Shown here: piece after piece, positions 1 to 6,291 of the stretch
How positions within the stretch are numbered: position 1 is the stretch's first letter
Layout of the letters: each line of letters opens with the position of its first letter
Virus record (IMG/VR): IMGVR_UViG_2585427751_000007
Span: 1-6,291 of that record
Reading direction: 5' to 3' (one strand)
Source: a virus
Lineage: Duplodnaviria; Heunggongvirae; Uroviricota; Caudoviricetes
DNA length: 6,291 bases
The notes under the pieces: generated by a model
The model's database searches: none
Seen by the model: the letters and a program-made list of their open reading frames with translations, nothing else
Told to the model about the DNA's origin: nothing
Translations under genes and position numbers: made by a program

Positions 1-267
1 ATGAGGGTATCCAGACAAGCATCGAATAATTTGTTTGTTCGAGAGGGGTGTGACTGGTCTGCTAAAGCGGTATATGCAGCCCTTGAAAACAAAGGCACAG
101 ACCTCCCTGAACTGGAAAGGGAGTTAGGATTAAAAAGCGGATCAATGCGCAATGTGTTTTACCGCCAGTGCCGTAAATACGAAGCCGCCATCGCCGAAAA
201 AATAGGGGTTGAACCTGCTGTAATCTGGCCCAGCAGATACCAGGTGGACGCCAGAGAAGTGGCTTGA
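1..267 (+). CDS. ner: Ner-like DNA-binding transcriptional regulator (Mu Ner / E. coli Nlp family)
   Basis: 88-aa ORF. The C-terminal motif ...GVEPAVIWPSRYQ and the preceding DW...helix-turn-helix-like segment match phage Mu Ner and E. coli Nlp as recalled from memory. It sits directly upstream of a MuA-like transposase gene, as in the Mu early operon. The ATG is at the window edge and the ORF has a ~10 aa N-terminal extension relative to Mu Ner, so the true start is uncertain. Confidence 0.8.
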   Translation: MRVSRQASNNLFVREGCDWSAKAVYAALENKGTDLPELERELGLKSGSMRNVFYRQCRKYEAAIAEKIGVEPAVIWPSRYQVDAREVA

Positions 268-277
268 TGGGGGATGT

Positions 278-1408
278 ATGTGGGTAACAGCAAAAGAATG
301 TGTTGGTCTTCCTGATTTACCAATGATGGAACATAACATTCGCCATCGACTCACAAAAGCAGCTGCGGGAAATGCAGCCATGTTACGCAAACGTAAGGGG
401 ACAAAAGCAATCGAATTTAATATCGATTGTTTGCCTTCTGGCGCGCAACAAGTATTGCGTGAACGTTATGCCCTTCAACTGATGACGCAAAAAGCTGATG
501 AATCACCGGCTCCGGTGGTGACAAAGGCCAGACGCTCATCTGCCGTGGTTGATGCGGTGGAGGCATATCGCGGATCACCACAACTGATGCTCGAACGCCT
601 CAATGCCCTGACTGAAAACCAGCGCCAGGTGGCTGATGCACGAATCGCGATCGTCAGCGAAGTTCTGAAAGTCGCGCAACAACCTGGTTTCAGCTGTGCG
701 AAGGCTATCCGGTTTATCGTTGACAACCTGGCACGTTCGCAACTGGACGAGCGCATTGTGGCAATGGTTGAGACGGCGAACGCCAAAAAGGGAAACAGCC
801 GTGCGTTGAGTGAAATCACGCTGAAACGCTGGATTGCGGCCTTTAACAAGGCACAGAACGCCGCTGAACGCCTGCTTTTACTGGCACCGGGTAAACGCCA
901 GGAAATAAAAGCCGAAGATATTAACTGGCTGCCCGAATTTCTGGCGCAGTATCGCCAGTCAAACGGCCGACCAATGACCGAGGCTTACGAGGATTTTGTT
1001 GCTGAATGGCAGCACCGGCACGCTGATGAGCCTTATATGCTCGATATCATGCCCTCTTATGACACCATTCGCCGCGCAATGAAGAAACTGCCGGAAGTGG
1101 TGAAACAAAAAGGCCGGGTAACTGGCAGTGAATACCGTCAGCTTGAGGGATTCACGCGCCGCGACTGGTCCAGAATGCCGGTGAATTATGTCTGGATTGG
1201 TGACGGTCACGGCATGAAGCTGAAATGCGCGCACCCGGTTCACGGGCGGCCATTCGCACCGGAAGTGACCTTTGTTATCGACGGTGGCACGCGCTTTGTG
1301 GTGGGCTGGAGCCTTGATCTGGCTGAAAATGTTTTCGCTGTAGCCGGTGCCATACAGCACGGCATTCGCCATCACGGCAAACCGTTTCTGTATTACTCGG
1401 ATACCGGG
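278..1408 (+). other. MuA-like transposase portion of the chimeric ORF (enhancer/end-binding region and partial RNase-H-like DDE core; catalytically incomplete)
   Basis: Residues 1-~377 of the 533-aa ORF align by eye with the MuA N-terminal half, including two of the three DDE residues. The third acidic residue and the C-terminal domain are absent. Confidence 0.65.
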
Positions 1409-1879
1409 ATCAAAACCCGTGCGGATGCGCACGACACCCTGAAAACGCAGGTTGCCAGCCTGTCGGCAGAACTGGAAACCGCAAAAGGCACACCAACTGG
1501 CGGCACTATTGATCTGACGAAATATGTGCCCGTTGAGACGTATAACACCCTGCGTACCGAATATGCCGCGCTGTCGGCACAACACGGCAGCACCACGCTG
1601 GAGCAGTTGCTGGATAAGGCCGAGTCCGAAGGACGCATTTTCAAAAGCGAACGCGGATACATGGAAGGACTCGGACAACAGATTGGCGTCGCGGCACTTT
1701 CTGCACAGCTTGACGCCCGCCAGCCGGTTGCGGCTCTGACCACTCTTCAGACCGACACCGTAACCGTGCCGGATAAAAAGACCGCCACCGCTGTGCTGTC
1801 GGCTGAAGATATCGCCGCCGCACGTCTGTTGGGTAAAACCGAAGCCGAGTTCCTGAAAATGAAAGAGGAAATGCAATAA
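278..1879 (+). CDS. Chimeric ORF: truncated MuA-family transposase (N-terminal DNA-binding domains plus DDE core through the second Asp) fused in frame to a phage scaffold-like C-terminal domain (gpI/gpZ-like)
   Basis: The N-terminus MWVTAKECVGLPDLP...KGTKAIEFN resembles the MuA N-terminus (ELWVSPKECANLPGLP...KGGKAIEYN, from memory). The catalytic-core motifs are VWIGDGHG (Asp codon 309, nt 1202-1204) and LYYSDTG (Asp codon 375, nt 1400-1402), a spacing of 66 residues against 67 for MuA D269-D336. After that there is no MuA-like segment and no Glu in a MuA-like context. The last ~150 aa are Ala/Leu/Glu/Thr-rich and coiled-coil-like, ending ...LSAEDIAAARLLGKTEAEFLKMKEEMQ, and the stop TAA overlaps the ATG of the major head gene (TAATG at 1877-1881). 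A GGGGGA Shine-Dalgarno-like sequence lies 3 nt upstream of the start. Confidence 0.7.
   Translation: MWVTAKECVGLPDLPMMEHNIRHRLTKAAAGNAAMLRKRKGTKAIEFNIDCLPSGAQQVLRERYALQLMTQKADESPAPVVTKARRSSAVVDAVEAYRGSPQLMLERLNALTENQRQVADARIAIVSEVLKVAQQPGFSCAKAIRFIVDNLARSQLDERIVAMVETANAKKGNSRALSEITLKRWIAAFNKAQNAAERLLLLAPGKRQEIKAEDINWLPEFLAQYRQSNGRPMTEAYEDFVAEWQHRHADEPYMLDIMPSYDTIRRAMKKLPEVVKQKGRVTGSEYRQLEGFTRRDWSRMPVNYVWIGDGHGMKLKCAHPVHGRPFAPEVTFVIDGGTRFVVGWSLDLAENVFAVAGAIQHGIRHHGKPFLYYSDTGIKTRADAHDTLKTQVASLSAELETAKGTPTGGTIDLTKYVPVETYNTLRTEYAALSAQHGSTTLEQLLDKAESEGRIFKSERGYMEGLGQQIGVAALSAQLDARQPVAALTTLQTDTVTVPDKKTATAVLSAEDIAAARLLGKTEAEFLKMKEEMQ
1409..1879 (+). other. Scaffold-like C-terminal domain (Mu gpI C-terminus / gpZ-like) of the chimeric ORF
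   Basis: Low-complexity, Ala/Glu/Leu-rich sequence with predicted coiled-coil character and an acidic C-terminus, placed immediately before the major head gene with stop/start overlap. This arrangement is typical of scaffold/protease genes in Mu-like phages. Boundary is approximate (within about 20 nt). Confidence 0.55.
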
Positions 1880-2826
1880 TGCCTACCCCGATTACACCGG
1901 CGATGATCACCGCCCTGATGACGGGCTACCGTTCTGATTTTCAGGCCGGGATGTCCATGGCTCCGTCGCAGTACCAGAAAATTGCGATGACCGTGCCGTC
2001 CACCTCGAAATCCAACACCTACGGCTGGCTGGGGCAGTTCCCGCAGTTCCGTGAGTGGATCGGCTCCCGCGTCATCGAGAAGATGAAAGCCTATGGCTAC
2101 GCCATCGTGAACAAAACCTTTGAAGGCACCGTTGCCATTAGCCGCGATGACTTTGAAGACGACAATCTCGGCATCTACTCCCCGTTATTCCAGGAAATGG
2201 GTCGTGCCGCTGCGGCACAACCGGATGAACTGGTCTTTGCTGCACTGCGTGATGGTCTGAATGCGGCCTGCTATGACGGCCAGAACTTCTTTGATACCGA
2301 ACACCCTGTTTACCCCAAAGTGGATGGCTCCGGTGATGCACAGATGGTCAGCAATATGTTTGTGGCAAAAACCGGCTCTGTCGGTGCACAGGCGGATTAC
2401 AGCGGCCCGGCCTGGTATCTGCTTGACTGCTCCCGCGCGGTAAAACCGCTGATTTATCAGGATCGCCGCAAAGCCGAACTGGTTGCCCAGACAAAAGTCG
2501 ATGAAGGCCGTGCGTTTACTGATAACGAGTTTGTGTTCGGTGCTTCCGCCCGTCGCAATGTGGGCTACGGCTTCTGGCAGATGGCCTACATGATGCAGTC
2601 ACCGCTGACGCTGGATGCGCTGTGGCACGGCTGGTCAGCCATGCGTGACTTTAAGGCTGACGGTGGCCGCAAACTCGGCATCAAACCCACCCATATTGTT
2701 GTCCCCACCTCGCTGGAAAAACAGGCGGTGCAGCTGCTGGAGCGCGAGCTGTTCGCAGACGGTAACGCCACAGTCTCTAACGAGATGAAGGGCAAGCTGG
2801 AGCTGGTTGTCGCGGATTATCTGTAA
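1879..2826 (+). CDS. T: Major head (capsid) subunit, Mu gpT-like
   Basis: 315-aa ORF of the right size and position, with an N-terminus (MPTPITPAMITALMTGYRSDFQAGM...) of the kind I associate with Mu-like gpT proteins. AGAGGA Shine-Dalgarno-like sequence at 1864-1869, 9 nt upstream of the ATG. Overlaps the upstream stop. Confidence 0.85.
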   Translation: MPTPITPAMITALMTGYRSDFQAGMSMAPSQYQKIAMTVPSTSKSNTYGWLGQFPQFREWIGSRVIEKMKAYGYAIVNKTFEGTVAISRDDFEDDNLGIYSPLFQEMGRAAAAQPDELVFAALRDGLNAACYDGQNFFDTEHPVYPKVDGSGDAQMVSNMFVAKTGSVGAQADYSGPAWYLLDCSRAVKPLIYQDRRKAELVAQTKVDEGRAFTDNEFVFGASARRNVGYGFWQMAYMMQSPLTLDALWHGWSAMRDFKADGGRKLGIKPTHIVVPTSLEKQAVQLLERELFADGNATVSNEMKGKLELVVADYL

Positions 2827-2833
2827 ACGGTGA

Positions 2834-2852
2834 GCCGGGCTTACGGCCCGGC
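2834..2852 (+). terminator. GC-rich stem-loop just downstream of the major head gene (7-bp stem GCCGGGC/GCCCGGC, 5-nt loop); possible attenuator or mRNA-stabilising hairpin
   Basis: The inverted repeat at 2834-2840 and 2846-2852 is seen directly in the sequence. No U-tract follows, so it is not a canonical intrinsic terminator. Confidence 0.3.
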
Positions 2853-2869
2853 CCCTGCGGAGGGCAAAT

Positions 2870-3229
2870 ATGAATGAACATCACACTGTGGCAGCAACAG
2901 ATGATTCAGGCCTTCAGGTCAGTGGTGACAGTCCTGTCACGGTACTGGCAGAAGTGCGTTGCAGTCGTACGCATTTTCGTCGTGCGGGGTTCCTGTTCAT
3001 GCGGGGACGCCAGCAGGTTGACGTCACCCCGGAGCAGCTTGCCCGACTGGAAGCGGAGCCATGCCTCACTGTACGAATACTACAGACGCCTGGTGATGAT
3101 GCGGGAGCCGTGGCGGGTGTGGTTCATGCAGAGACCGGTGCAGATTTAGCCGAAGCCGAAACCGTACAGGATGCTCCCCGGAAAAAGACCGGCAATAACG
3201 CCAGACAGGCGAAAAAGGCGCGCGCATGA
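2870..3229 (+). CDS. Small hypothetical protein in the gp35 position of Mu-like late operons (between major head and gp36-like genes)
   Basis: 119-aa ORF with a GGAGGG Shine-Dalgarno-like sequence at 2859-2864, 5 nt upstream of the ATG. Its stop overlaps the next start (ATGA at 3226-3229), indicating translational coupling. Strongly basic C-terminal tail (RKKTGNNARQAKKARA). Function not recognised. Confidence 0.6.
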   Translation: MNEHHTVAATDDSGLQVSGDSPVTVLAEVRCSRTHFRRAGFLFMRGRQQVDVTPEQLARLEAEPCLTVRILQTPGDDAGAVAGVVHAETGADLAEAETVQDAPRKKTGNNARQAKKARA

Positions 3230-3645
3230 ATTACGCCACCGAAACCGATATGCGGGCACGTTACCGCGAGGATTTGCTCAGGCCATTACTGGCCGTGCCC
3301 CGTTCGGATGAACCGGACACGCGCAAGCTGAACCGGGCACTGACGGACGCGTCTGCCCTTATCGACAGCTATCTGTCTTCCCGTTACACGCTGCCGCTGG
3401 CGGTGGTTCCGGCGGTCCTTGTTCAGCATTGCTGCACGATTGCCTTTTATTACCTGTGCGATCAGCGGGCATCCGATCAGGCGCGTGACCGTTACCGTGA
3501 GGCGCTGGCCTGGCTGAAAGATGTCATGAACGGTAACGTGCCGGTCGGCGTGGATACAGACGGTGCGGCCCCTGAATCCGGGGATTTACCGCAGGTGCAG
3601 TCTGATGCGGCGGTGTTCGGGCGCAACCAGAAGGGCTTTATATGA
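3226..3645 (+). CDS. Mu gp36-like head-tail joining/neck protein (DUF1320 family)
   Basis: 139-aa ORF. The segment ...ALTDASALIDSYLSSRYTLPLAVVPAVLVQHCCTIAFYYLCD...YREALAWLKDV... matches the conserved pattern of the DUF1320 / Mu gp36 family as recalled. Correct size and position. ATGA overlap with the next gene. Confidence 0.8.
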   Translation: MNYATETDMRARYREDLLRPLLAVPRSDEPDTRKLNRALTDASALIDSYLSSRYTLPLAVVPAVLVQHCCTIAFYYLCDQRASDQARDRYREALAWLKDVMNGNVPVGVDTDGAAPESGDLPQVQSDAAVFGRNQKGFI

Positions 3646-4205
3646 TTACGGAAACCGAGCAGGCGTACATCGCCCGTATCCGTGAGTATTTCGGGAATGA
3701 ACTGGTGTCTGTTGACACACATCCCGGCGACTGGAGCGACAGCGTACTGCGCACCATGCTGATTAACGCCCCGGCTATCTATGTTGCCTGGCTGGGTGCC
3801 GGTGAAGGGCGTACCCGTGGGCGTCTGGTCAGTCACTGGGTGTTCTACGTCATCGGCGACATGCTCAATGGCCGTGAGGTCAGCCGTCCCGGGCTTTATC
3901 AGATTGTGGCCCGCCTGATTACCGTGCTGGACGGCTTCAGAGCAGAAAAAACCTCACCGCTTTACTTTGAAAAGGCGGTCAACGGTTACACCGAAACGCA
4001 GGCAGGCAGCGGTGCCGTGATGTACGCCCTGTATTTCTCATGCGAGGAAATGATCGACCCGCTGACGGATATCAGCTCGCTGGATGATTTCCTGCGCCAT
4101 TACGAAACCTTTACCGAACCGGAAGGCACGCCGGAATTTAAGGCACACATCCGTCTGCCTGGTGCAACTGCCGCCGGTGAAAACGCCGGACTGTCAGAGG
4201 AATAA
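3642..4205 (+). CDS. Mu gp37-like virion protein (DUF1834 family)
   Basis: 187-aa ORF of the right size and position for the gp37-like family. AAGGG Shine-Dalgarno-like sequence 6 nt upstream of the ATG. Start overlaps the upstream stop. Confidence 0.75.
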   Translation: MITETEQAYIARIREYFGNELVSVDTHPGDWSDSVLRTMLINAPAIYVAWLGAGEGRTRGRLVSHWVFYVIGDMLNGREVSRPGLYQIVARLITVLDGFRAEKTSPLYFEKAVNGYTETQAGSGAVMYALYFSCEEMIDPLTDISSLDDFLRHYETFTEPEGTPEFKAHIRLPGATAAGENAGLSEE

Positions 4206-4208
4206 CAG

Positions 4209-4487
4209 ATGACAACCATTTTTATTAAACCTGCGCCGGGATGCCTGATCCGCGATCCCGACACGATGACTCCGCTCTCTCAGGACGGGGAAGAGAAACC
4301 CTTCACTCCGTTCTGGTGCCGCCGTCTTAATGATGGCGACGTCATTGTGGTGGATAAAACGGCGGAGCCTGCCCCGGCTGCCACAACTGCTAATACCGGC
4401 GCGGCGGCAAAACCAGCGGGAGCGGTAGCAGAAAAAACTGCGGCGGTGGCTGAAAAAACCGCAGCATCAGATAAGGGGACGTCCTGA
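4209..4487 (+). CDS. Mu gp38-like small protein (DUF2635 family) with an Ala-rich repetitive C-terminal tail
   Basis: 92-aa ORF. The N-terminus MTTIFIKPAPGCLIRDPDTMTPL...FWCRRLNDGDVIVV matches the gp38-like pattern as recalled. AGAGGAA Shine-Dalgarno-like sequence at 4196-4202. Its stop overlaps the sheath start (TGATG at 4485-4489). Confidence 0.75.
   Translation: MTTIFIKPAPGCLIRDPDTMTPLSQDGEEKPFTPFWCRRLNDGDVIVVDKTAEPAPAATTANTGAAAKPAGAVAEKTAAVAEKTAASDKGTS
4422..4463 (+). repeat. Imperfect 21-bp tandem duplication (gcggtagcagaaaaaactgcg / gcggtggctgaaaaaaccgca) encoding AVAEKTA-AVAEKTA
   Basis: Direct tandem repeat seen in the sequence inside the C-terminal tail of the gp38-like ORF. Confidence 0.5.
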
Positions 4488-6058
4488 TGATTAACTTTGA
4501 TTATATCGGCGATAACAATCGCATTCCGCTGGTACAGATTGAAATCAATAATTCAATGGCCGTGACCGGCACTCCACCACAGCGTCAGGCGGTACTGTTG
4601 TTTGGTCAGGCTGCAATGAAAGACACTACCATTCAGGGGCGCGGTCAGCTTGATGTACCAGTACGTATTACCCGAGCTTCACAAGCAAGAGAACTCTGGG
4701 GGCGAGGTTCCATGATTGCACTGATGGTAGAGGAATTTATCGCCATTAACCCTGACACAGAGTTATATGCCATTGCACAGGGGGCTGGAACAGGTCAGTC
4801 CAGGGCATGCGTGATGAATATCATTGGAACAGCATTGGCAGACGGGGTGTTAAGTGTTTACATCGGCGGTCGCCGTTACCTCCTGCCCGTCAGTAAGGGG
4901 AAAAAAGGTAAAGAGCTTGTGGAAGAGCTGGCTAAGGTCATTAACGCTGACACTGATGCGCCATTCACTGCTATCGCAGCTGAAGTCAGTGGTGATAATG
5001 CTGAAGGACTTAAAGGCAGCATGGGGGTTAACGCCCGCTTTATCGGTGAATGCTCAGCTCATGATTTACGGGTGAACTATTATGACGGTGAAACTACACC
5101 GGCCGGTCTTACGCTGGAGCTCGTCGCGCCAACACAGAAGGCAACAAACCCCGATATCACCCGTAGCGTCTCAGGGATGGGGAATCGTCAGTACAACTAC
5201 ATCGTCATGCCCTATAAGGATGCGGCAAATCTCAAAATTCTGGCGGATGAACTGCTGAAACGCTGGGGACCGGTAAAAATGTCGGACGGTATGGTCTGGA
5301 TGGCGCATACCGGCACCTTCGGTACGGCAACCAGTTTTGGTGAATCCCGTAATGACTTCCTGTTTACCTGCACTTCTATTCCTAAAGCACCAGAGCCGGA
5401 TTATGTCTGGGCGGCCTCCATTTGTGCGGTCTGTGCGCCCTCCCTGTCAACGGATCCGGCCCGACCATTACAGACACTGGCGCTGCCTGCCCGTATGGCA
5501 CCTGAAGCACCGGCTCGTCTGACGCGGGAAGAGCGAAACAGCCTGCTTTATACCGGCATGTCCACGGTGACCGTTGCGGCCGCTGATGTGGTGCAGATTG
5601 AACGTCAGGTGACGATGTACCGTCAGAATGCATACGGCGAAAGCGATCCCAGCTATCTGGATGTAGAAACCATCTACACCCTGTCATATCTGCGTTATTC
5701 CCTGCGCACCTTTATCACGCAGCGTTTCCCGCGCCACAAACTGGCCGATAACGGTACTCCCGTCCGGCCCGGTCAGAATATCGTGACGCCGGAGATTATG
5801 ACGCTCCAGCTGATTGCACTGGGGGAAGAATGGGTGGAACTCGGGCTGGTCGAAAATCTGGACACCTTTAAAAAGAATCTGCTCGTGGAGCGCAACACAA
5901 AAGACCGTAACCGTCTGGATGTGATGTGTACACCGGATCTGCACGGCAGCGTGCCCTGCGTGAAATGCGCCGTGCGATTGCCCGTTCAGAACGGTTTTCT
6001 GCCACCGTGCGTGGCTGGTTCCGGGATGATGGCCGGTTATGGGATGTCAATCTGCTGA
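4487..6058 (+). CDS. L: Contractile tail sheath protein (Mu gpL-like); the C-terminal ~38 codons look like out-of-frame read-through into a neighbouring gene fragment
   Basis: 523-aa ORF of sheath size and position, sheath-like through ...NLLVERNTKDRNRLDVMCTPDL. AAGGGGA Shine-Dalgarno-like sequence at 4473-4479. The final segment HGSVPCVKCAVRLPVQNGFLPPCVAGSGMMAGYGMSIC is Cys/Pro/Gly-rich and atypical, while the -1 frame over the same DNA gives a well-formed protein sequence. Confidence 0.8.
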   Translation: MINFDYIGDNNRIPLVQIEINNSMAVTGTPPQRQAVLLFGQAAMKDTTIQGRGQLDVPVRITRASQARELWGRGSMIALMVEEFIAINPDTELYAIAQGAGTGQSRACVMNIIGTALADGVLSVYIGGRRYLLPVSKGKKGKELVEELAKVINADTDAPFTAIAAEVSGDNAEGLKGSMGVNARFIGECSAHDLRVNYYDGETTPAGLTLELVAPTQKATNPDITRSVSGMGNRQYNYIVMPYKDAANLKILADELLKRWGPVKMSDGMVWMAHTGTFGTATSFGESRNDFLFTCTSIPKAPEPDYVWAASICAVCAPSLSTDPARPLQTLALPARMAPEAPARLTREERNSLLYTGMSTVTVAAADVVQIERQVTMYRQNAYGESDPSYLDVETIYTLSYLRYSLRTFITQRFPRHKLADNGTPVRPGQNIVTPEIMTLQLIALGEEWVELGLVENLDTFKKNLLVERNTKDRNRLDVMCTPDLHGSVPCVKCAVRLPVQNGFLPPCVAGSGMMAGYGMSIC

Positions 6059-6291
6059 CCGGTGTTTCAGCCCTGCGTTTCGGTATAGAACAGACTGAAC
6101 TGCTGGTCTGTCAGGTGGAGTTTTTACTTGATGAGCATAACGGGGAAGTCACCCGGCTGGTACTGGCACCGCGTGACGGCTTTATCGTTCCGGCAGAGCC
6201 GGACAGTAAGGGCCGGGGTGGTTCCGGTGACGATGTTGATGCCTTTATTCGCCAGCAGATGAAAAAACAGGGGATCAGCTTTGATGAATGA
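5926..6291 (+). pseudogene. C-terminal fragment (~115 aa) of a baseplate hub protein of the gpD family (P2 gpD / Mu gpP-like), lacking its N-terminal ~2/3 and its own start
   Basis: The frame is open from nt 5911, with the first GTG at 5926 and an ATG at 5965. The translation ...RRAIARSERFSATVRGW...VNLLTGVSALRFGIEQTELLVCQVEFLLDEHNGEVTRLVLAP... resembles the C-terminal region of P2 gpD-like hub proteins as recalled from memory. It overlaps the sheath ORF by ~130 nt in the -1 frame and has no Shine-Dalgarno sequence. Family assignment is tentative. Confidence 0.45.

What the first reader, a model, noticed from the sequence alone, without database searches (positions are those of the whole stretch)
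1..6291. Element retains an intact, coupled head-neck-sheath gene set but lacks packaging, portal, protease and tube functions
T, the gp35-position ORF, gp36-like, gp37-like, gp38-like and most of the sheath gene are uninterrupted, each with a plausible Shine-Dalgarno sequence and start/stop overlaps (TAATG, ATGA, ATGA, TGATG). None of the genes needed to make a particle (terminase, portal, protease, tube, tape measure, baseplate) is in the window. Either this is a recently deleted cryptic prophage not yet decayed by point mutation, or the retained block is maintained for some host function. The window alone cannot tell these apart.
Basis: inference. Interest (0 to 1): 0.45.

Follow-up and report, generated by a model that had tools for sequence, protein, structure and literature searches.

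The report
Recently deleted Mu-like prophage remnant
The window is the left part of a dead, Mu-type transposable prophage in an E. coli gut isolate that lost about 25 kb in three internal deletions; its head, neck and sheath genes look intact because the deletions are too recent for decay, so the finding is ordinary.

Summary
No complete packaging, portal, protease, tube, tape-measure or baseplate gene is present.

Comparison with full-length relatives shows two deletion joints in the window. J1 (1402-1403) fuses transposase A residues 1-375 in frame to the last 158 residues of protease/scaffold I, removing 16.5 kb. J2 (5940-5941) fuses sheath residues 1-485 out of frame to the baseplate gene P, removing 5.2 kb. 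A third joint, J3, lies 27-34 bp past the window and removes 3.2 kb.

The source is E. coli 4-203-08_S3_C1, with the prophage inserted in yaeF. J1 occurs on only 2 contigs and in none of 5,426 complete E. coli genomes. The retained 4.5 kb carries one private substitution against six full-length relatives, so dN/dS says nothing about selection since the deletion.

A sister element in malX shares J2 and J3 but has lost T and fused gp36/gp37, so the block is not conserved. The native late promoter region and activator lie in the deleted DNA.

Verdict: a recently deleted, immobile cryptic prophage. Side finding: the sister element keeps an intact transposase and shows nested flank deletions.

The parts
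1..267 (+). ner-like early regulator (88 aa), first gene of the early operon
   Evidence: Pfam HTH_35, E=1.7e-20; 37.5% identical to Mu Ner. The exact protein is seen on at least 1000 contigs. A divergent 203-aa CI-type repressor gene and a sigma70-like site (TTGATA-17-TATGAT) lie just upstream in L002.
278..1403 (+). 5' part of transposase gene A (residues 1-375 of about 695)
   Evidence: PHROG transposase profile positions 8-354 of 696; Pfam HTH_Tnp_Mu_1. blastn 446-1403 = L001 2504-3461, 94.6%. It aligns to MuA residues 3-328, so the DNA-binding part is kept. The region holding MuA's third catalytic residue (E392, from my own knowledge) and the C-terminal domains are lost.
1402..1403 (.). 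Deletion joint J1 (A::I), 2-bp microhomology TA, about 16.5 kb missing
   Evidence: blastn of the window against the full-length prophage L001: 446-1403 = 2504-3461 and 1402-5941 = 20001-24541; joint sequences. Missing: A 3' part, B, the early genes, gam, Mor/C-family activator, lysis genes, terminase, portal, F, G and the I protease domain.
1404..1879 (+). 3' part of gene I (last 158 codons, equivalent to Mu scaffold Z residues 33-182), in frame with A'
   Evidence: Pfam Mu-like_Pro positions 198-330 of 330; PHROG head maturation protease positions 203-338 of 339; 58% identical to Mu I 211-360 / Z 33-182. It holds the only substitution private to this element (1547, Thr for Ala).
1879..2826 (+). 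Major head protein T (315 aa), intact
   Evidence: Pfam Mu-like_gpT, E=3.7e-119; 67% identical to Mu T; 0 nt differences from L001; exact protein on at least 1000 contigs.
2870..3229 (+). gp35-position protein (119 aa, FluMu_N / HI1506-related), intact
   Evidence: Pfam FluMu_N; phrog_3622; Mu gp35 46.5% over 43 aa; identical to L001.
3226..3645 (+). gp36-like head-tail adaptor (139 aa), intact
   Evidence: Pfam Phage_Mu_Gp36, E=6.6e-36; PHROG head-tail adaptor; 47% identical to Mu gp36.
3642..4205 (+). gp37-like protein (187 aa, DUF1834), intact
   Evidence: Pfam Phage_Mu_Gp37; phrog_490; 39% identical to Mu gp37.
4209..4487 (+). gp38-like protein (92 aa, DUF2635), intact
   Evidence: Pfam DUF2635; 54% identical to Mu gp38.
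4487..5941 (+). Tail sheath gene L, codons 1-485 of 500
   Evidence: Pfam Phage_sheath_1 and Phage_sheath_1C; 49% identical to Mu L. Full-length relatives encode 500 aa. The region differs by 2-3 nt from the AF39/M-type and L001 alleles.
5931..5941 (.). Deletion joint J2 (L::P): exact microhomology TG at 5940-5941 inside an imperfect 8/11 match, about 5.2 kb missing
   Evidence: blastn 1402-5941 = L001 20001-24541 and 5931-6291 = L001 29739-30096; sequences. Missing: the last 15 sheath codons, tube, tail assembly chaperone, tape measure, DNA-circularisation protein N and about 256 codons of P. The same joint is found in the malX elements.
5942..6058 (+). 38-codon out-of-frame tail of the sheath fusion ORF, read from gene P DNA
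   Evidence: ORF 4487-6058 = 523 aa. The P frame (5926-6291) is offset from the sheath frame.
5942..6291 (+). 3' fragment of baseplate gene P (Mu gp44), ending at its native stop codon
   Evidence: Pfam GpP_4th; 45% identical to Mu P 259-370; identical to the AF39 prophage apart from the joint. No native start codon; only internal GTG (5926) or downstream starts.

Best explanation
The window is the left 6.3 kb of a roughly 14-kb remnant of a 38.6-kb Mu-like transposable prophage. The prophage sits in the 3' end of yaeF in E. coli 4-203-08_S3_C1, whose flanks are nearly identical to K-12. Three internal deletions with short microhomologies (2, 2 and 5 bp) removed about 24.9 kb. J1 removed the transposase catalytic and C-terminal part, B, all early and lysis genes, the late activator, terminase, portal, F, G and the protease domain of I. 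J2 removed the sheath C-terminus, tube, chaperone, tape measure, N and most of P. J3, just past the window, removed gp45-gp48 and the 5' part of the tail-fibre gene. What is left cannot transpose, lyse the cell or build a particle. The head-neck-sheath block is passenger DNA. It looks intact because the deletions are recent compared with the rate of point mutation, not because it is being maintained. Its native promoter region upstream of I and the late activator gene are deleted. Any transcription would have to be read-through from the repressor-controlled early promoter via ner and the A'::'I fusion; this step is inferred. J1 is private to this strain. The J2-J3 module is older and shared by descent with a heteroimmune sister element in malX. 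It most likely reached this prophage by recombination between related prophages or phages, but the route is inferred.
For: Shown by tool results:
- Three collinear segments against full-length prophages, with sharp joints.
- Pfam and PHROG hits on both halves of each fusion ORF.
- Source contig and flanks: chromosome (dnaE to nlpE, yaeF 3' end, 100% K-12), then a Mu-type left end with two TTTGATACCGAC repeats, a divergent repressor and ner.
- The contig ends 71 bp after the window, inside the inverted repeat of the invertible tail-fibre segment.
- The J1 fusion protein is on 2 contigs / 3 samples only. No complete E. coli genome (0 of 5,426) covers a J1-spanning or a J2-J3-spanning query. The J2 26-mer is absent from GTDB species representatives and JGI metagenomes.
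- Window 1402-5941 is 99.67% identical to the JE86-ST05 prophage. Only 1 substitution is private to the window against six full-length relatives.
- dN/dS for window versus relatives is 0.09-0.18, the same range as relatives among themselves, 0.08-0.20.
- The malX sister elements carry identical J2 and J3 but have lost T and fused gp36/gp37.

Literature: defective E. coli prophages recombine with and are complemented by other prophages (PMC2669165).
Against: The right end of the element is on another contig, so the full extent, the target duplication and the absence of the missing genes downstream are inferred from 71 bp plus the sister elements. Whether another Mu-like prophage in the same genome could complement the remnant was not testable. 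With at most one private substitution, sequence cannot exclude selection acting since the deletion; it only shows there is no evidence for it. The exact sheath fusion protein occurs on at least 27 contigs, which could be read as conservation, although clonal spread explains it.
Confidence: 0.86

Rival explanations
1. The retained head-neck-sheath block is kept by selection because it serves the host, for example as a capsid-like or sheath-like structure, or as a dominant-negative 'poison' subunit against related superinfecting phages.
For: Five ORFs are intact with preserved translational coupling. The sheath::P fusion protein is identical on at least 27 contigs and in two different elements.
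Against: The J1 arrangement is limited to 2 contigs / 3 samples. The sister lineage has deleted T and fused gp36/gp37. One private substitution in 4.5 kb makes intactness the neutral expectation. The region upstream of I and the Mor/C-family activator are deleted in the window element, and the region upstream of I is also deleted in the sister element, so an incoming phage could not switch the block on. Portal, protease, tube and baseplate partners are absent, and the sheath lacks its last 15 residues.
Confidence: 0.04
2. The joints are assembly artefacts: the contig is chimeric and the real prophage is complete.
For: The source is a short-read draft assembly and the window lies at a contig end.
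Against: J2 and J3 recur, base for base, in at least 12 independent isolate and metagenome contigs of 10-240 kb. The J1 protein has two GenBank accessions, was read on 2 contigs, and its contig is listed in 3 samples. Overlaps at the joints are 2-5 bp, far below any assembler k-mer. The contig end is explained by the invertible-segment inverted repeat.
Confidence: 0.02
3. This is rearrangement rather than loss: the missing genes lie elsewhere in the same prophage or genome, so the element is still functional or complementable as a unit.
For: The right part of the element is unseen, and Mu-like prophages are common in E. coli (about 250 of 5,426 complete genomes match), so a second helper-type copy could exist.
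Against: The upstream flank is chromosome. Downstream, the sequence passes through J3 straight into the tail-fibre invertible segment. In sister elements with the same J2-J3, the rest is only tail-fibre assembly, invertase, DUF6645, com and mom, then the right end. Even with a helper, the element lacks a functional transposase and could only be moved in trans.
Confidence: 0.06
4. J2 and J3 arose independently in the window element and in the malX element (recurrent deletion at the same short repeats) rather than by shared descent.
For: Both joints sit in short imperfect repeats (8/11 and 7/8 matches), which favour slippage.
Against: Exact microhomology is only 2 and 5 bp. Two identical joints 390 bp apart, with 0 differences in the P/gp45 piece between them, are very unlikely to recur. 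Neither joint is seen among the Mu-like prophages found in about 230-250 of the 5,426 complete genomes searched.
Confidence: 0.03

Closest known systems
Escherichia phage Mu (Muvirus) and relatives D108 and SfMu
   Same: Gene order matches: c / ner / A ... I(Z)-T-gp35-gp36-gp37-gp38-L-M...P-gp45, then an invertible tail-fibre segment, an invertase, com and mom. Every retained protein matches its Mu counterpart. Relatives sit at many different chromosomal sites.
   Different: Protein identity is only 37-67%; the A part is 22% identical to MuA. The repressor is CI/HTH_3-type. The right end finishes in ...TATA rather than ...CA, and three full-length relatives show 4-bp, not 5-bp, flanking repeats. 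The window element has lost about 65% of the genome.
Full-length E. coli Mu-like prophages of the same lineage (AF39 in dcyD; JE86-ST05 in an Rhs gene; 23CRST047 in elyC)
   Same: 97-99.7% nucleotide identity over window 1402-5941, and the same ends.
   Different: These carry the 24.9 kb that the window element lacks. The immunity region and the A 5' part are mosaic (94.6-95.3% identity, or no match).
Classical defective prophages of E. coli (the 'defective prophage pool' of O157 Sakai, PMC2669165; 'grounded' prophages, PMC6379469)
   Same: Internal deletions remove replication/transposition, lysis and morphogenesis functions while leaving runs of intact genes. Modules are exchanged with related prophages by recombination.
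   Different: The backbone here is a transposable Mu-type phage rather than a lambdoid one, and no cargo or virulence gene is evident in the window.
Laboratory A+ B- defective Mu prophages and mini-Mu (comparison for the malX sister element, not for the window element)
   Same: The sister element keeps both ends and a full-length A but has a truncated B. Its flanks show nested deletions ending exactly at the element ends. [quoted passage not shown]
   Different: It is natural rather than engineered, and activity is inferred from population variation, not measured. The window element itself has a truncated A and is immobile.

Membership tests
Mu-like transposable prophage (Muvirus-type) | Divergent repressor / ner-A early region next to a left end carrying repeated transposase-binding motifs | tested here: met
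   L002: left end TGTAACCAGG... at 8600, TTTGATACCGAC at 8617 and 8712, 203-aa repressor on the minus strand, then ner and A'.
Mu-like transposable prophage (Muvirus-type) | Mu-type DDE transposase A with an N-terminal Mu DNA-binding domain | tested here: inconclusive
   Only residues 1-375 remain (Pfam HTH_Tnp_Mu_1; PHROG transposase positions 8-354 of 696). The catalytic core is truncated and the C-terminal domains are deleted. Full-length relatives have 694-696-aa A proteins carrying Mu-transpos_C.
Mu-like transposable prophage (Muvirus-type) | Late-gene synteny I/Z-T-gp35-gp36-gp37-gp38-L with homology to the Mu proteins | tested here: met
Mu-like transposable prophage (Muvirus-type) | Insertion at essentially random sites with a short (5 bp in Mu) target duplication | tested here: inconclusive
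   Relatives sit in Rhs, elyC, dcyD, malX and yaeF. Three full-length relatives show 4-bp flanking repeats (TACA, CGTG, TAGA); the elyC case was checked against the K-12 target. For the window element the right end is on another contig, so it is not testable.
Functional (inducible, particle-forming) prophage | Complete transposition/replication, lysis, packaging, head and tail gene sets | tested here: not met
   Missing relative to L001/L032: A 3' part, B, the lysis genes, terminase, portal, F, G, the protease domain, tube, chaperone, tape measure, N, most of P and gp45-gp48.
Tailocin / contractile injection system | Sheath together with tube, baseplate, tape measure and a lysis or release module, without head genes | tested here: not met
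   No tube, tape measure or baseplate genes are present, the sheath lacks its C-terminus, and head genes are present.
Capsid-forming phage satellite (cf-PICI-like) | Own integrase and replication module plus capsid, portal, protease and head-tail connector genes, relying on a helper for tails | tested here: not met
   There is no integrase, replication module, portal, complete protease or terminase. The element is collinear with a Mu-like phage at 99.7% identity.

The most novel reading that the evidence does not exclude
The truncated sheath::P fusion (identical in two heteroimmune elements and on at least 27 contigs), or the remnant as a whole (repressor, plus a DNA-binding but catalytically dead A'::'I protein), is retained because it interferes with superinfecting Mu-like phages. 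The mechanism could be poisoning of tail assembly, occupation of phage ends, or repressor immunity. A better supported but less radical reading is that the J2-J3 deletion module is one ancestral allele that has moved between heteroimmune prophages at yaeF and malX. In the same reading, the A+ B- sister element is still transpositionally active in natural K-12-like E. coli and erodes uidA-malX.
Probability: 0.05. Interest if true: 0.55.

Novelty: new member of a known kind. Interest (0 to 1): 0.18.

Why it matters
For the window itself it matters little. It is one more example of how prophages are disarmed by a few large microhomology deletions. It also shows that a run of intact, translationally coupled phage genes is the neutral expectation for a young remnant and should not be read as domestication.

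The comparative by-products have some value for prophage evolution. First, one deletion module (J2-J3) is shared by two heteroimmune Mu-like prophages at different chromosomal sites, so defective alleles circulate by recombination. Second, a natural A+ B- relative shows flank deletions of the kind expected when MuB-dependent cis-immunity is lost, removing uidA (the beta-glucuronidase gene) and malX in some gut isolates.

Tried and rejected
- **Whole-window and joint-spanning megablast** against 5,426 complete E. coli genomes found no record with J1, J2 or J3.
- **Exact 26-mer across J2** gave 0 hits in GTDB species representatives and in JGI metagenome contigs.
- **Phage collection.** Megablast found only distant matches, namely Mu-like inserts in Stx phages and Yersinia phages. 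tblastn with T placed the family.
- **dN/dS (Nei-Gojobori)** for window versus relatives cannot be told apart from relatives versus relatives. With one private substitution it carries no information on selection after the deletion.
- **Promoter and terminator scans** of the window gave no more sites than shuffled controls (1 promoter-like site against 3.3 expected). No internal promoter can be claimed.
- **Rfam, tRNA and tandem-repeat scans** found nothing relevant.
- **Locating a W/M recombination breakpoint at the sheath start** was weakened. The sheath is nearly invariant across the whole family (0-5 nt among most relatives), so the sharp drop in divergence at about 4472 is a family-wide mosaic boundary.
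- **Inversion between two co-resident prophages** was considered as the source of the hybrid and rejected. Both elements have the same orientation on the K-12 map, so reciprocal exchange would delete 1.5 Mb.
- **Target duplication of the window element** could not be tested, because the right end is on another contig.
- **Large protein searches and structure prediction** were not run, because every ORF was already assigned by Pfam, PHROGs and Mu homology.


Full report
**1. What is in the window**

One search lists a single + strand array:

| Coordinates | Gene or ORF |
|---|---|
| 1-267 | ner |
| 278-1879 | 533-aa ORF |
| 1879-2826 | T |
| 2870-3229 | gp35-position ORF |
| 3226-3645 | gp36-like |
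| 3642-4205 | gp37-like |
| 4209-4487 | gp38-like |
| 4487-6058 | 523-aa sheath ORF |
| 5926-6291 | 121-aa GTG ORF |

- Pfam, PHROGs and blastp against phage Mu proteins confirm each assignment.
- Identities to Mu are Ner 37.5%, T 67%, gp35 46.5% over 43 aa, gp36 47%, gp37 39%, gp38 54%, L 49% and P 45%.
- The overlaps TAATG, ATGA, ATGA and TGATG, and SD-like purine runs 6-11 nt upstream of the starts, are present.
- Rfam, tRNA and tandem-repeat scans add nothing.

**2. The two fusion ORFs are deletion joints**

Megablast against 5,426 complete E. coli genomes finds window 1402-5941 as one uninterrupted block in full-length Mu-like prophages. Identity reaches 99.7% (JE86-ST05), but no record covers 80% or more of the window.

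blastn against that prophage (L001; annotation) splits the window into three collinear pieces:

| Window | L001 | Content | Identity |
|---|---|---|---|
| 446-1403 | 2504-3461 | transposase A | 94.6% |
| 1402-5941 | 20001-24541 | I 3' part to sheath | 99.67% |
| 5931-6291 | 29739-30096 | 3' end of baseplate gene P | 98.9% |

- **J1 (1402-1403, microhomology TA)** deletes about 16.5 kb. It fuses A residues 1-375 in frame to the last 158 residues of I, which correspond to Mu scaffold Z residues 33-182.
- **J2** has exact microhomology TG at 5940-5941, inside an imperfect 8/11 match, and deletes about 5.2 kb. It joins sheath codon 485 of 500 out of frame to P, giving a 38-residue foreign tail.
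- The window therefore holds a scaffold/protease fragment and a baseplate fragment. The sheath is C-terminally truncated.
- From my own knowledge, the C-terminal strand of contractile sheath subunits takes part in the inter-subunit 'handshake'. The truncated product is therefore unlikely to polymerise; this was not tested.

**3. Source and flanks**

An exact-protein look-up places the A'::'I fusion on NCBI contig JOQJ01000001.1 (GCA_000714025.1, E. coli 4-203-08_S3_C1). It was read on 2 contigs, and this contig is listed in 3 samples.

- The window is L002 9724-16014, and the contig ends 71 bp later.
- Upstream are dnaE to nlpE and the 3' end of yaeF. This stretch is 100% identical to K-12 up to K-12 position 216,260.
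- Next comes a Mu-type left end (TGTAACCAGG...) with two TTTGATACCGAC repeats. It is followed by a 203-aa CI-type repressor on the opposite strand, a sigma70-like site, and ner.
- In the last 71 bp there is a third joint, J3, at L002 16041-16048, 27-34 bp past the window end. Its microhomology is TAACG. It links the first codons of gp45 to the tail-fibre gene at L001 33284 and deletes about 3.2 kb.
- The contig stops inside the inverted repeat of the invertible tail-fibre segment, because the sequence matches L001 33284-33328 and also 34614-34574 in reverse. That explains the assembly break.
- In total about 24.9 kb of a 38.6-kb phage are missing.
- A clean full-length reference is the AF39 prophage in dcyD (L032).

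**4. Is the arrangement conserved?**

- J1 is not conserved. It is found on 2 contigs only. No other fusion occurs in its 90% identity cluster, and none of 5,426 complete genomes spans it.
- J2 and J3 are also absent from complete genomes, from GTDB species representatives and from JGI metagenome contigs.
- However, the exact 523-aa sheath fusion is listed on 27 contigs and in 58 blocks of the collection. All 10 places shown belong to a different element inserted in malX ('M-type', L003-L012).

Mapping the M-type element to L001 gives the following:
- It carries the same J2 and the same J3.
- It has a different immunity region (168-aa repressor, 81-aa Ner).
- Its A is full length (694 aa).
- Its B is truncated and joined to the last codons of T (L001 4967>21415).
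- It has a further gp36::gp37 deletion (21856>22579).

From window 4472 to the contig end (1.9 kb) the two elements differ at 2 synonymous sites. Just upstream they differ by about 13%.

With exact microhomologies of only 2 and 5 bp, two identical joints 390 bp apart mean shared descent of the J2-J3 module, not recurrence. The sheath is nearly invariant across the family, and the M-type allele is identical to AF39. The crossover that placed J2-J3 on two backgrounds therefore cannot be located precisely. Four informative sites are compatible with a crossover between 5018 and 5414.

**5. Selection or recency?**

- Against six full-length relatives, the 4,540 retained nucleotides have a single private substitution (1547, Thr for Ala in the I fragment). 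There are none in T through the sheath.
- The T, gp35-position, gp36, gp37 and gp38 proteins are identical to alleles seen on at least 1000 contigs.
- Nei-Gojobori dN/dS is 0.09-0.18 for window versus relatives and 0.08-0.20 among relatives. It records the shared past as a working phage.
- From my own knowledge, short-term E. coli substitution rates are of order 1e-7 to 1e-6 per site per year. A 4.5-kb neutral stretch would then gain one substitution in roughly centuries to millennia. Intact ORFs are therefore the null expectation.
- The sister lineage has discarded T and broken gp36/gp37, so the block is not being preserved.
- The native regulatory context is gone. The 178-nt gap upstream of I, where I would expect Mu's late promoter P_I by analogy (not tested), lies inside J1. 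So does the only Mor/C-family activator gene.
- The promoter scan of the window finds fewer sites than shuffles.
- Any expression would be read-through from the early promoter, which the resident repressor should keep off. This is inference.

**6. Mechanistic reading**

- Shown: three microhomology deletions, loss of every function needed for transposition, lysis and particle formation, and strain-restricted J1.
- Inferred: the order of events was J2-J3 first, in an AF39-like phage, then transfer of that module onto a JE86-like, heteroimmune genome, then J1.
- The transfer could have occurred by recombination in a mixed infection or induction, or by gene conversion between co-resident prophages.
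- Both host backgrounds are at least 99.8% identical to K-12 in the 3-8 kb compared (at least 99.96% in all but one flank), which makes in-cell contact plausible.
- Prophage-prophage recombination and complementation of defective E. coli prophages is documented (PMC2669165).
- A reciprocal exchange between the two sites is excluded, because the two elements have the same orientation on the K-12 map.

**7. Side observations in relatives**

(a) Nested flank deletions in the M-type elements.
- The M-type elements keep exact ends, but their host flanks differ between assemblies.
- In coordinates of the fetched K-12 locus L029 (malX = 16356-17948), there are seven left junctions: 17261, 17189, 16824, 16709, 12431 in uidA, and 10673 and 10477 in uidB.
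- There are five right junctions: 17364, 17468, 17529, 17599 and 17934.
- Each of the five fully spanned contigs has its own pair, and none retains a simple insertion.
- Nested deletions that stop exactly at the element ends are what intramolecular transposition by an A+ B- element would produce. [quoted passage not shown]
- This is an inference from population variation.

(b) Target duplications in full-length relatives.
- Three full-length relatives are flanked by 4-bp, not 5-bp, direct repeats. One was checked against the empty K-12 target.
- The right end terminates in TA rather than CA.

**8. Comparison and verdict**

- The element is a member of the Mu-like transposable phages by end structure, early-region layout and late-gene synteny. 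It is not a functional prophage, a tailocin or a capsid-forming satellite; see the membership table.
- It is a new, unremarkable member of a known kind, a young deletion remnant.
- Interest is low for the window and moderate for the comparative by-products.

Noticed in passing
L003-L012, L025, L028 (malX-region elements); element ends at e.g. L004 5195 and 18302: Sister Mu-like elements have an intact transposase A but a truncated B, and they keep exact ends. Their host flanks differ between isolates: 7 left junctions and 5 right junctions, nested around malX and reaching into uidA and uidB. This pattern is expected from repeated transposase-mediated adjacent deletions after loss of MuB cis-immunity.
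   Followed up: partly
L002 16041-16048 (27-34 bp beyond the window end) and L003 11445-11455 / 11832-11839: A third deletion joint J3 (gp45 start to the tail-fibre gene) lies just outside the window. J2 and J3 are base-for-base identical in the yaeF element and in the heteroimmune malX elements. One deletion module is therefore shared by two prophages at different chromosomal sites.
   Followed up: yes
L032 about 682 / 39755; L001 about 1134 / 39753; L033 with L013 42301; K-12 target L034 4588-4612: Three full-length relatives are flanked by 4-bp direct repeats (TACA, CGTG, TAGA) rather than the 5-bp duplication of phage Mu. Their right end terminates in ...CTATA instead of ...CA, and the second base of the left end varies (TG or TA).
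   Followed up: partly
L002 1-8599; L003-L007 flanks: Chromosomal flanks of the window element and of the malX elements are 99.8-100% identical to E. coli K-12 MG1655 over 3-8 kb (99.96-100% in all but one flank). Both defective elements therefore live in very K-12-like (probably ST10-complex) backgrounds, including human gut metagenome assemblies.
   Followed up: partly
L001 23086-28988 (JE86-ST05 prophage); L013 3587-5922 and 28037-30453: The nearest 'full-length' relatives are themselves damaged. JE86-ST05 is annotated with frameshifts in the sheath, tube, tape measure and N genes, which may be assembly errors. 23CRST047 carries two IS66-family insertions. AF39 (L032) is the only clean reference fetched.
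   Followed up: no
L023 9162-10285 (Logan SRR29410221): An otherwise complete tail region has gene P called as two ORFs (296 aa plus the same 94-aa ORF as in the window). This implies a frameshift in P, or an assembly error, in that sample.
   Followed up: no
window 4334-4472 (gp38 3' half): The alanine- and lysine-rich C-terminal half of gp38 is the most variable stretch of the block. It differs by about 13% between allele groups, and gp38 is 90, 92 or 95 aa in different elements. It lies next to an almost invariant sheath gene, a sharp mosaic boundary common to the whole phage family.
   Followed up: partly
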